Shown piece after piece: positions 61,979-63,806 of a DNA stretch of 64,000 nt. Numbering within the stretch: position 1 is the stretch's first letter; the number at the start of each line of letters is the position of its first letter. The notes under the pieces were generated by a model. It worked only from the letters and a program-made list of their open reading frames with translations, searched no databases and was not told where the DNA came from. Origin of the DNA: the human T2T-CHM13v2.0 reference genome, Homo sapiens. Made by a program: the position numbers and the translations under genes. Location: the NCBI RefSeq assembly GCF_009914755.1, contig NC_060926.1; one strand, given 5' to 3'.

Positions 61979-63806
61979 TGTCACGGGCTCCTTAAGGTGT
62001 TGCTTCACCAGCCAGAAATTTCTGTGGCAGGCAGCACCTTCTGACTGAGTATTTGCTCGTGCCCACTGGGTTTGTTCTGCCCACTCGGCCTGGCAGGCTG
62101 TGCTCAGCTTACGCTACAGGCCCAGGTCCCACACCTGCCAAGCGCAAGACAGGCACGAAGCGGTGAGGGTTATGTGAGCAAGTGAGAGTGGGTTCCAGCC
62201 ACTGTGCACAGCCAGGTGGGCATGCTGGCTGCTTAGGCGGAGAAGTCAGCTCCAGGTGCCTGGCACAGGTGCCAGCTCTGTGCAGAGTCACAGCTGGATC
62301 AAATGCACTGCACGTGGCTTCTGCTGCAGGTACCCATGTCTAGATGAAGGGAATGCAGTGGCACCTGGAAGCTTGGAGATGCCAGGAACTGCAGAGACCC
62401 AAAGAGGGTATCACAGCCCTGGCTCAGGGAGTCCCTAGGTCTGGACTCCCCAAAGGGCCACATCTCTTCTCTCCTTCTTGTTGCCTGCAAGCAGGAGAGA
62501 AGCAGGGATTGGGGGTGGGTTGCAGGGTCATGTTTCAGCTCTGTTTGTGTTATAGCTCTTTTAGTCCCGCCATTCAGCAGGTCCAAAGTTCTTGTCCCAT
62601 GTCCTGGAAAAATGAGGTACACAGACACCTGGAGGATAAGCACGGTGGAGAAGAGCTTCATTGAGCAGCAGAACAGTTCTCAGGAGACCCAATGGCCATA
62701 GCTCCTTTCCACTGGCAGATCATCCCGATGTCTGTGCAGCCCTCAGTGGAGAGGAGAGGAGACCCAGAGTGAGTAGCTCCTACCTGCAGTCAGGTCACCC
62801 CATTGTCTGCCCAAGTCTAGCTGTATCTGGGGGTTTTTATGGGTTTCCAAGGAAAGGAAGTGCATGCTGATTGGTCCATAAGCAGCCATGGGCACCCCAG
62901 AAAAAGCACCATAAGTTCTCACTCCAGTCCACGGAACTGGCAGCCCAGTCCTCAGGCCTCAGGCCTCAGGCCAGCATTGGCTTGAAGGTAGGGCTTCACC
63001 GGGGACCTGTCCATTTTTTCCCAGGATTCTGTCTGCTTCCTGCCACCATCAACCTGCTCTCCATGGTGCCCATGGCACCCAGGCTGTTTGTGCCAGGGGG
63101 TGCCTGCAGGCCCTTGCCAAGCTGCCCTCAGCACCCCTGGCCTCCCTCCTGTGCTTGTCAGTGCCCAAAGTCTGGAGGGGGCCAAGGCAACAAGGGGCTG
63201 GTGTGTCAGCACTGCCCCAAGCACACACACTTAGCCGGGTTGCAACAGTGCCTGGGCTCAGCCTCAACTTTGCAGGCACTGGGAGCAGGGAGAGGCCAGG
63301 CAGCAAGAGCAGAGACTTCTGAGCCTACAGGGGCATGAGGGCTTCCCAGTCCCGAGAGCACTGGAATGCCAAGGTCCGCAGCCTCAGCTGGGGCTTGGGG
63401 CAGTGCTGACACACCAGCCCCTTGTTGCCTTGGCCCCCTCCAGACTTTGGGCACTGACAAGCACAGGAGGGAGGCCAGGGGTGCTGAGGGCAGCTTGGCA
63501 AGGGCCTGCAGGCACCCCTTGGCACAAACAGCCTGGGTGCCATGGGCACCATGGAGAGCAGGTTGATGGTGGCAGGAAGCAGACAGGATCCTGGGAAAAA
63601 ATGGACAGGTCCCCGGTGAAGCCCTACCTTCAAGCAACTGTGCCTGGGAGGGTGGGGCTCCCACCCTTCCAACTCAGAAGCAGAAGGGGCTCCCACCTAT
63701 TCCTAGCTCCCACTGGGTCTGTGGAGTGCTCAGCCCCAGCCGTACCTTCCCCACTGCAGAAGGCATCATGGCAGCAGTTGCTCCAGATGGGCCACCACTG
63801 TCATCA
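61979..63806 (-). mobile_element. MER52(A)-like ERV1 solo LTR
   Basis: GC-rich long LTR bounded by tgtcacggg (61979) and tgtcatca (63806), with a perfect 4-bp TSD acac at 61975-61978 and 63807-63810. Confidence 0.85.
62980..63635. repeat. Near-perfect inverted repeat: 243-bp arms (62980-63222 and 63393-63635), 170-bp spacer
   Basis: Manual base-by-base comparison gives 241/243 reverse-complement identity, with mismatches at right-arm positions 63519 and 63587. Confidence 0.97.

What the first reader, a model, noticed from the sequence alone, without database searches (positions are those of the whole stretch)
62980..63635. Recent 243-bp near-perfect inverted duplication inside an ancient MER52 LTR, a potential long dsRNA hairpin
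Seen: 62980-63222 is repeated inverted at 63393-63635 (241/243), 170 bp apart and GC-rich. The flanks ...gcctcagctggg and gcaactgtgcctgggagg... look like adjacent MER52 sequence, so the right arm reads as an insertion with only a few bases lost and GC microhomology. Both mismatches would be G.U wobbles in a plus-strand transcript, giving an uninterrupted 243-bp stem, although chance gives this about 1 time in 4. Established: MER52 copies are old and far more diverged than 1%, and long perfect hairpins are ADAR/MDA5/PKR/Dicer substrates and fragile DNA structures. Inference: this is a recent fold-back or template-switch event, or one homogenised by gene conversion. It may be polymorphic and could make the LTR an endogenous dsRNA or siRNA source.
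Basis: partly seen in the sequence, partly recalled or inferred. Interest (0 to 1): 0.72.

Follow-up and report, generated by a model that had tools for sequence, protein, structure and literature searches.

The report
Inverted copy inside old retroviral LTR
A solitary MER52-type retroviral LTR on human chromosome 2 later gained a 243-base reversed copy of its own neighbouring sequence; this gives a striking hairpin on paper, but it is an ordinary kind of copying error and no activity has been shown for it.

Summary
Window 62980-63222 recurs reverse-complemented at 63393-63635, with 241 of 243 bases matching and a 170-base spacer. The repeat sits in a complete solo LTR, 61979-63806, with TG..CA ends and a 4-base target-site duplication. 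Print anchors name it MER52, MER52A-like, of the ERV1 class. The subfamily was not settled because no Dfam library was available.

The left arm and spacer are ordinary LTR sequence. The right arm is an insertion: 14 of 37 other copies bridge the site, and the window carries a median surplus of 236 bases there. None of the 37 copies has a second arm. The arms differ by 0.8%, against 17-35% between each arm and other copies. This is therefore a local templated copy of the "3-2-1-4" template-switch shape, not two insertions.

At both mismatches the inserted arm keeps the family-common base, which argues against an assembly artefact. The point estimate of age is about 4-8 My, with a range of 0.5-30 My. 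The LTR itself is far older.

Both strands fold into the long stem. Transcription, editing, small RNAs and polymorphism remain untested. The only annotation is an intron of a predicted minus-strand lncRNA.

The parts
61975..61978 (.). Left copy of the 4-base target-site duplication (ACAC)
   Evidence: Read. It matches 63807-63810 and lies directly outside the LTR end set.
61979..63806 (-). Complete solo LTR of the MER52 group (MER52A-like, ERV1 class). It is 1828 bases including the 243-base insertion, with TG..CA termini.
   Evidence: Left end: 32 of 39 other copies start at query base 179-180 of 61800-62540, which is window 61978/9. Right end: most of the 40 other matches end at query base 171-172 of 63636-64000, which is window 63806/7. 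The LTR is colinear end to end with the LTR that hosts MIR1202 and with most of the print-named MER52A of lncMER52A. The minus strand is taken from the strand printed for the chr4 copy and was not tested here.
62946..62972 (.). 7-base tandem repeat, 3.9 copies, ending 8 bases before the outer edge of the source arm
   Evidence: Tandem Repeats Finder. Any role in the event is only a guess.
62980..63222 (+). Source arm: ordinary LTR sequence, colinear with other copies
   Evidence: It is contiguous with the spacer in other copies. It carries the derived base at both mismatch columns.
63223..63392 (+). Spacer (loop), 170 bases of ordinary LTR sequence
   Evidence: it matches other copies at 71-76% identity, directly next to the arm.
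63393..63635 (-). Inserted reverse-complement copy of 62980-63222 (241 of 243 bases match)
   Evidence: The window has a median surplus of 236 bases relative to the 14 of 37 copies that bridge the site. This arm keeps the family-common base at both mismatch columns (C in 32 of 37 copies, A in 35 of 37).
63696..63775 (-). Stretch homologous to the mir-1202 precursor. The match is below the family threshold, so it is a naming clue and not a miRNA gene call.
   Evidence: Rfam RF03587 scores 25.7 bits against a gathering score of 80, E 0.03. MIR1202 itself lies in a copy colinear with this LTR.
63807..63810 (.). Right copy of the 4-base target-site duplication (ACAC)
   Evidence: with the LTR end taken.

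Best explanation
A MER52-type (MER52A-like, ERV1) provirus integrated in an anthropoid ancestor and was later reduced to a solo LTR at 61979-63806. Much later, in a single event, DNA synthesis left its template at 63392 and copied the stretch 63222 back to 62980 in reverse-complement. It then returned a few bases downstream of where it had left. This added a 243-base inverted copy and removed about 5-7 bases.

This is the '3-2-1-4' outcome of the four-point template-switch model. Whether the switch occurred at a replication fork or during repair of a break is not resolved. Two substitutions have since accumulated, both in the source arm.

Shown here: the anatomy, the direction of copying, the family, the relative age, and that either strand would fold into a stem of about 243 base pairs. 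Inferred: the mechanism and the absolute dates. Not shown: any transcription through both arms, and any function. My reading is that this is a neutral structural scar with latent hairpin potential.
For: - **Arms.** They match at 241 of 243 bases with a 170-base spacer.
- **Not two insertions.** No other place in the genome exceeds 82-83% identity to an arm.
- **Colinearity.** The left arm, spacer and sequence after 63635 are colinear with other copies. 14 of 37 copies bridge the site, and the window has a net surplus of 236-237 bases against 9 of those 14, with a median of 236 (sequences seen).
- **Not a family feature.** 37 of 37 other copies give a single match to the arm.
- **Junctions.** The outer junction shares 2 bases and the inner junction shares none.
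- **Real, not an artefact.** The inserted arm keeps the family-common base at both mismatch columns (32 of 37 and 35 of 37), so it was copied before the source arm changed.
- **Solo LTR.** It has TG..CA ends and a 4-base duplication.
- **Name.** The LTR is colinear with print-named MER52A copies. 41 of 48 family loci score best against those two anchors.
- **Age.** K2P between arms is 0.0083. The private branch of this LTR is 0.10-0.13 in four regions. CpG count is 19 observed against 156 expected.
- **Model.** The four-point model and its type 3-2-1-4 are described in PMC5453318 (passages).
- **Folding.** Both strands fold into the long stem.
Against: - No orthologous locus or second human haplotype could be read, so the state before the event is inferred from paralogous copies only.
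- Microhomology is 0 and 2 bases, which supports no particular pathway.
- 243 bases is much longer than the short events for which the four-point model was devised. Their length distribution is in a supplement that I could not open.
- Gene conversion between the arms could make an older duplication look young.
- The chr4 print anchor is only 67-68% identical, and its last 176 or so bases did not align to the right-end piece at E <= 0.001.
- The MER52D anchor also matches, patchily, at 69%, so the subfamily rests on colinearity and length.
- 23 of 37 copies did not bridge the site with the limits I set.
Confidence: 0.8

Rival explanations
1. The same one-step templated inverted copy, but made during repair of a double-strand break: a resected 3' end primed on nearby sequence, synthesis followed, and the ends were joined. 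It was not made by a switch at a moving replication fork.
For: A few bases were lost at the site and the junctions share 0 and 2 bases, as end joining would leave. A search listing shows that breaks can induce inverted duplications by fold-back priming (PMC10622511, abstract start only).
Against: Nothing in the sequence separates this from a fork-based switch. From recall, templated insertions at repaired breaks are usually much shorter than 243 bases.
Confidence: 0.3
2. The inverted duplication is old, close to the age of the LTR, and its arms have been kept nearly identical by gene conversion.
For: Close inverted repeats can exchange sequence (general knowledge, recalled). Arm identity of 99.2% does not by itself date the event.
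Against: Identity ends abruptly at both edges, with no decayed homology beyond them. The two differences lie 48 and 116 bases from the outer edge, so there is no edge-enriched divergence. Both differences are derived changes in one arm, as simple accumulation after a recent copy predicts.
Confidence: 0.1
3. Two independent MER52 insertions lie in opposite orientation, as with inverted Alu pairs.
For: The other large inverted pairs in this window are of that kind. Their arms are 98-99% identical to many copies elsewhere but only 79-97% complementary to each other.
Against: Here the pattern is reversed: 99.2% between the arms against at most 82-83% to any other copy. The right arm is an internal 243-base piece without LTR ends. 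It interrupts one LTR that has a single pair of target-site duplications.
Confidence: 0.01
4. The repeat is an assembly or sequencing fold-back artefact in the reference.
Against: An artefactual copy would equal the present source arm. Instead it differs at two sites and holds the family-common base at both. The structure is 656 bases, is embedded in continuous colinear LTR on both sides, and is far shorter than the long reads used for this assembly (recalled).
Confidence: 0.02
5. The hairpin is a working RNA locus: a long dsRNA that is edited, sensed or diced into small RNAs.
For: Either strand folds into a stem of about 243 base pairs. The locus lies inside a predicted lncRNA intron. Template switching is reported to create RNA hairpins and new miRNAs (PMC8794818 and 10.1101/2023.04.19.537475, abstract starts only).
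Against: No transcript, miRNA or functional element is annotated here apart from the Gnomon lncRNA intron. No Rfam family reaches its threshold. MER52A and MER52C are reported silent in the cells examined in PMC13644760 (passage). Immunogenic duplexes in PMC13251931 sit in 3'-UTRs (abstract), whereas this one is deep in an intron. No polyA or TATA motif survives in the LTR.
Confidence: 0.05

Closest known systems
Short-range template-switch mutations, four-point model type '3-2-1-4' (mirror '1-4-3-2') (PMC5453318, passages read)
   Same: [quoted passage not shown] It replaces a few bases and creates an inverted repeat with a spacer in one step. [quoted passage not shown]
   Different: The copied fragment is 243 bases, whereas the model was devised for short events. 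That scan required the copied fragment not to be repeat-masked, so an event inside an LTR would have been filtered out. Here the ancestral state comes from paralogous copies and not from an outgroup.
MER52A solo LTRs named in print: the LTR that drives lncMER52A (PMC11007075, Table 1 and section 4.2.3) and the LTR that hosts MIR1202 (PMC10136691, table row)
   Same: The sequence is colinear over 1.4-1.6 kb. Lengths are alike: 1585 bases here without the insert, against 1573 printed for chr4 and 1513 measured for chr6. Both ends are shared with the chr6 copy.
   Different: Neither of those copies has the inverted arm. Identity is only 64-76%. This copy has no annotated promoter use.
Inverted-repeat Alu duplexes, the main known endogenous dsRNA (abstract starts of PMC8313407 and PMC11978871; abstract of PMC13251931)
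   Same: An intramolecular duplex of a few hundred base pairs, formed by two inverted copies of a repeat within one transcription unit.
   Different: The arms here come from a local copy and are 99.2% complementary, whereas Alu pairs are independent insertions and are less well matched (recalled). No expression or editing is shown here. The position is intronic in a predicted lncRNA, not a 3'-UTR.
Large fold-back inverted duplications (PMC3907307, title and abstract start only)
   Same: An inverted duplicate separated from its source by a short single-copy spacer.
   Different: Those span many genes and are modelled with a dicentric intermediate. Here 243 bases are inserted and both flanks are kept.

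Membership tests
MER52 LTR (ERV1 class; LTR of MER52AI/MER52-int) | Sequence homology along the whole length to copies that print names MER52A | tested here: met
   The chr6 LTR that hosts MIR1202 aligns from window 61979 to 63806, in pieces, at 64-76% identity (named). The chr4 LTR of lncMER52A aligns to window 61989-63392 at 67-68% (named). Its last 176 or so bases did not align at E <= 0.001.
MER52 LTR (ERV1 class; LTR of MER52AI/MER52-int) | LTR ends TG..CA flanked by a short target-site duplication (4 bases for class I elements, recalled) | tested here: met
   TG lies at 61979-61980 and CA at 63805-63806. ACAC lies at 61975-61978 and 63807-63810.
MER52 LTR (ERV1 class; LTR of MER52AI/MER52-int) | Assignment to one subfamily (A, B, C or D) by a curated family model | not testable with these tools
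   No Dfam or RepeatMasker library was available. The MER52D print anchor (2439-base amplicon) matches only in patches. 41 of 48 family loci score best against the two MER52A anchors and 7 against MER52D. No MER52B or MER52C anchor was compared.
MER52 LTR (ERV1 class; LTR of MER52AI/MER52-int) | Association with the MER52 internal region | not tested
   This is a solo LTR. Inner genes were not needed for the name and were not fetched. The pairing of LTR and internal part comes from PMC5753468 (passage).
Template-switch mutation, four-point type 3-2-1-4 | The inserted fragment is the reverse complement of nearby sequence, with switch points in the order 3 < 2 < 1 < 4 | tested here: met
   with the definition.
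Template-switch mutation, four-point type 3-2-1-4 | An ancestral or outgroup sequence lacks the fragment and is otherwise colinear | tested here: inconclusive
   Only paralogous copies could be used: 14 of 37 bridge the site and lack the fragment. No ape ortholog was within reach.
Template-switch mutation, four-point type 3-2-1-4 | Short range and short fragment | tested here: inconclusive
   The range is short, with the source 170 bases away. The fragment is 243 bases. The printed length distribution is in a closed supplement.
Endogenous long dsRNA / hairpin RNA locus | Both arms lie in one stable transcript | not testable with these tools
   The only annotation is an intron of the Gnomon lncRNA LOC105376755 on the minus strand.
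Endogenous long dsRNA / hairpin RNA locus | A-to-I editing clusters or small RNAs of 21-23 nt on the arms | not testable with these tools
Known RNA family (Rfam) | A score at or above the family's gathering threshold | tested here: not met
   There were 4 matches at E <= 1, all far below threshold. The best was mir-1202 at 25.7 bits against 80.

The most novel reading that the evidence does not exclude
The event produced, in one step and within the last few million years, an ape- or human-specific near-perfect RNA hairpin of 243 base pairs. When the surrounding lncRNA intron or the LTR is transcribed, this hairpin is hyper-edited, diced into small RNAs or sensed by PKR or MDA5. It would then be a naturally occurring long hairpin locus far better paired than inverted Alu pairs, and possibly variable between people.
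Probability: 0.05. Interest if true: 0.6.

Novelty: new member of a known kind. Interest (0 to 1): 0.3.

Why it matters
This is a clean and unusually long example of a one-step inverted templated copy in the human germline. It lies in repeat-masked DNA, which published template-switch scans left out on purpose. It shows that such events can build stems of several hundred base pairs as well as miRNA-sized ones. If orthologs date it and RNA data show transcription, it would be a natural test case for how cells handle a near-perfect long hairpin. As it stands, it is a neutral-looking scar in a gene-poor intron.

Tried and rejected
**Orientation from sequence.** I looked for AATAAA, ATTAAA, TATA-like and CCAAT motifs on both strands of the LTR. 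No polyA or TATA motif was found, so the strand rests on print.

**Rfam.** Nothing reached threshold. The weak mir-1202 match served only as a lead, which searches then confirmed by locus comparison.

**Length of known template-switch events.** Passages of PMC5453318 and PMC7954356 gave no figures. The distribution is in supplements, which are closed.

**Print on this locus.** Three searches were run.
- One search listed 15 of 6,295 papers, none of which holds MER52.
- One search found 12 papers that hold both MER52 and 'inverted', of which 11 were listed. By title and abstract start, none concerns an inverted duplication in MER52.
- I opened one of these, PMC7518892, and found no MER52 term in its main text.
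- I therefore found no description of this hairpin. Papers outside the library and supplements were not seen.

**Catalogue of long inverted repeats.** One search gave nothing specific.

**Subfamily.** A MER52C copy is mentioned upstream of a HERVH provirus near CALB1. I did not go there, to avoid fetching proviral genes, so A versus C is unresolved.

**Rejected readings.**
- Two independent insertions (arm identity pattern).
- A family-level palindrome (37 of 37 copies have a single arm).
- An assembly artefact.

**Dating.** I made no consensus. The private branch was derived from pairwise distances only. The substitution rates used (0.5 and 1.0e-9 per site per year) are recalled.

Full report
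**1. The observation.**

The sequence and the repeat finder show one inverted pair near the end of the window. A base-by-base comparison fixes it as 62980-63222 against 63393-63635. It has 241 of 243 complementary positions and a 170-base spacer (63223-63392), with G+C of 0.62 throughout.

The five extra bases that the repeat finder added at the outer edge pair at only 3 of 5. Beyond both edges pairing is at chance level.

The mismatches are 63028 T with 63587 G, and 63096 G with 63519 T. Both are transitions. They give G.U on the plus strand and A.C on the minus strand.

As RNA, the plus strand folds into an unbroken stem at -660.7 kcal/mol (z -39). The minus strand folds into the same stem with two 1x1 mismatches at -652.8 kcal/mol (z -37). 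As DNA the fold is -397.8 kcal/mol (z -33).

**2. What the surrounding sequence is.**

Searches of the window's own genome show that the arm, the spacer and both flanks belong to one dispersed family.
- There are 1222, 518, 1473 and 364 first-look candidates for the four queries. Only 40 were scored each time, so these counts are lower bounds.
- Of the 39 other copies scored with 61800-62540, 32 begin at query base 179-180, which is window 61978/9.
- Most of the 40 other matches to 63636-64000 end at query base 171-172, which is window 63806/7.
- The element therefore runs from 61979 to 63806. It starts with TG, ends with CA, and is flanked by ACAC on both sides.

This is a complete solo LTR with a 4-base target-site duplication. 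That duplication length is typical of class I (gamma-like) elements, from recall. CpG is heavily depleted, with 19 seen against 156 expected, and no polyA or TATA motif remains.

**3. Name, from print.**

No Dfam or RepeatMasker library was at hand, so I used copies that papers name.

(a) *The lncMER52A copy.* PMC11007075 (Table 1 and section 4.2.3) lists a MER52A solo LTR on the minus strand at chr4:65241174-65242746, which drives lncMER52A.
- I placed it in this assembly with an offset taken from EPHA5, whose hg38 coordinates I recalled. That put it at about chr4:68678111-68679683.
- LINC02835 (minus strand) starts there.
- Window 62015-63392 aligns to chr4 68678139-68679507 on the same strand at 67-68% identity.
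- With the LTR cut at its ends, the match starts 10 bases in.
- The last 176 or so bases of that interval did not align to our right-end piece at E <= 0.001.

(b) *The MIR1202 copy.* PMC10136691 (table row) gives miR-1202 as derived from LTR/ERV1, LTR/MER52A.
- MIR1202 lies at chr6:157149117-157149199, inside a match to our right-end piece.
- The LTR around it, chr6:157149089-157150601, is colinear with ours from the first base to the last at 64-76% identity.
- Rfam's mir-1202 model gives a weak full-length match at 63696-63775 on the minus strand, 25.7 bits against a threshold of 80.

(c) *The MER52D copy.* A MER52D copy was located with the primers printed in PMC10653712. It matches only in patches at about 69% and is much longer.

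Of 48 family loci, 41 score best against the two MER52A anchors and 7 against MER52D. PMC5753468 (passage) lists MER52A-D as the LTRs of MER52AI in the ERV1 group.

The verdict is MER52, MER52A-like by length and colinearity. No MER52B or MER52C copy was compared. The strand (minus) follows the printed strand of the chr4 copy.

**4. Which arm is the copy.**

In other copies the arm and the spacer are contiguous and on one strand. They run on, after a few bases, into the sequence that in the window follows 63635.

With fixed limits, 14 of 37 loci bridge the site. Against 9 of those 14 the window has 236-237 extra bases, with a median of 236 and a range of 164-253. The other 23 did not give paired matches within my limits.

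So 63393-63635 is an insertion into the LTR, and about 5-7 bases that other copies carry there are missing. The outer junction shares 2 bases (GC) between insert and recipient, and the inner junction shares none. All 37 other copies give a single match to the arm, so the palindrome is not a family feature.

**5. Local copy, not two insertions and not an artefact.**

The arms are 99.2% alike, while the best other copy in the genome is 82-83%.

The window holds a useful contrast. Its other large inverted pairs (1524-2452 with 4858-5793, and 8349-10286 with 11627-13701) are made of a young repeat with more than 4,600 first-look candidates. Their arms are 98-99% identical to many copies elsewhere but only 79-97% complementary to each other. 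That is the signature of independent insertions.

At both mismatch columns the inserted arm holds the base common in the family (C in 32 of 37 copies, A in 35 of 37), and the source arm holds the rare one. The copy was therefore made before the source arm changed. An assembly or read fold-back could not produce that pattern.

**6. Age.**
- K2P between the arms is 0.0083.
- With recalled rates of 1.0 and 0.5e-9 per site per year, the point estimates are 4.1 and 8.2 My. The Poisson 95% limits for two events are 0.5-14.9 My and 1.0-29.7 My.
- Without any consensus, the private branch of this LTR is estimated as the mean distance to other copies minus half their mean pairwise distance. It comes to 0.10-0.13 in four regions.
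- The per-arm divergence since the copy (0.004) is thus about 3-4% of the LTR's own branch.
- PMC10653712 (passages) states that MER52 numbers rise in New World and Old World monkeys and then stay level in great apes. This places the family in early anthropoids.

The duplication is therefore recent relative to the LTR, but it is most likely millions of years old. Polymorphism in people is possible and untested. Gene conversion could hide an older origin. The sharp edges and the lack of edge-enriched differences argue weakly against that.

**7. Mechanism.**

The anatomy is the '3-2-1-4' case of the four-point template-switch model. In PMC5453318 (passages) that type creates an inverted repeat and, with its mirror case, made up 31% of high-confidence human-chimpanzee events.

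That scan required the copied fragment not to be repeat-masked, so an event inside an LTR would not have been listed. Sequence cannot tell a fork-based switch from templated synthesis during break repair. A 7-base tandem repeat (62946-62972) ends 8 bases from the point where copying stopped. Whether it played a part is a guess.

**8. Function.**

Nothing is shown.
- The whole window is an intron of a Gnomon-predicted lncRNA on the minus strand. That is the strand with A.C mismatches.
- No Rfam family is matched at threshold.
- PMC13644760 (passage) reports MER52A and MER52C silent in the cells it examined.
- The abstract of PMC13251931 places immunogenic duplexes in 3'-UTRs.
- The abstract start of PMC10164571 says that distance between inverted repeats lowers their power to cause rearrangements. 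This suggests a 170-base spacer tempers DNA fragility.

I therefore read the structure as a neutral scar with latent hairpin potential. The RNA reading is kept as the bold alternative at about 5%.

**9. Verdict.**

The family is named at group level. The event belongs to a known kind but is unusually long. The functional and polymorphism claims are untested. Interest 0.3.

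Noticed in passing
window 1524-2452 and 4858-5793: A large inverted pair (790 + 155 nt, 96-97% complementary, 2.4-2.7 kb apart). Its arm is 98-99% identical to many copies elsewhere (5090 first-look candidates). These are therefore two copies of a young, very abundant repeat in opposite orientation, not a local duplication. 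The family was not named here.
   Followed up: partly
window 8349-10286 and 11627-13701: A second set of inverted segments (79-93% complementary, 1.3-4.8 kb apart). They also come from a very abundant young repeat, 98% identical to many copies (4664 candidates).
   Followed up: partly
window about 63190 (source arm) and about 63425 (inserted arm): The RefSeq start of LINC02835 in the chr4 MER52A copy (68679308, minus strand) maps, by arithmetic on the alignment, to about window 63190, inside the source arm. The inverted copy would then carry a second equivalent of that start point facing the other way. This was not aligned base by base, and no promoter activity is known here.
   Followed up: partly
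window 62946-62972: A 7-base unit repeated 3.9 times, ending 8 bases before the outer edge of the duplicated segment.
   Followed up: no
window 63068-63185 and 63430-63547: The RefSeq soft mask covers only these two mirror-image 118-base stretches of the 1.8-kb LTR. The mask in the supplied table therefore under-reports this old repeat.
   Followed up: no
window 62682-62813 against loci L007, L014, L015, L022, L023, L026, L029: Overlapping matches show that some family copies carry an extra tandem copy of roughly 50-100 bases of this part of the LTR.
   Followed up: no
window 63696-63775, minus strand: The stretch homologous to the mir-1202 precursor scores 25.7 bits against a threshold of 80. 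The true MIR1202 sits in a sister LTR on chr6.
   Followed up: yes
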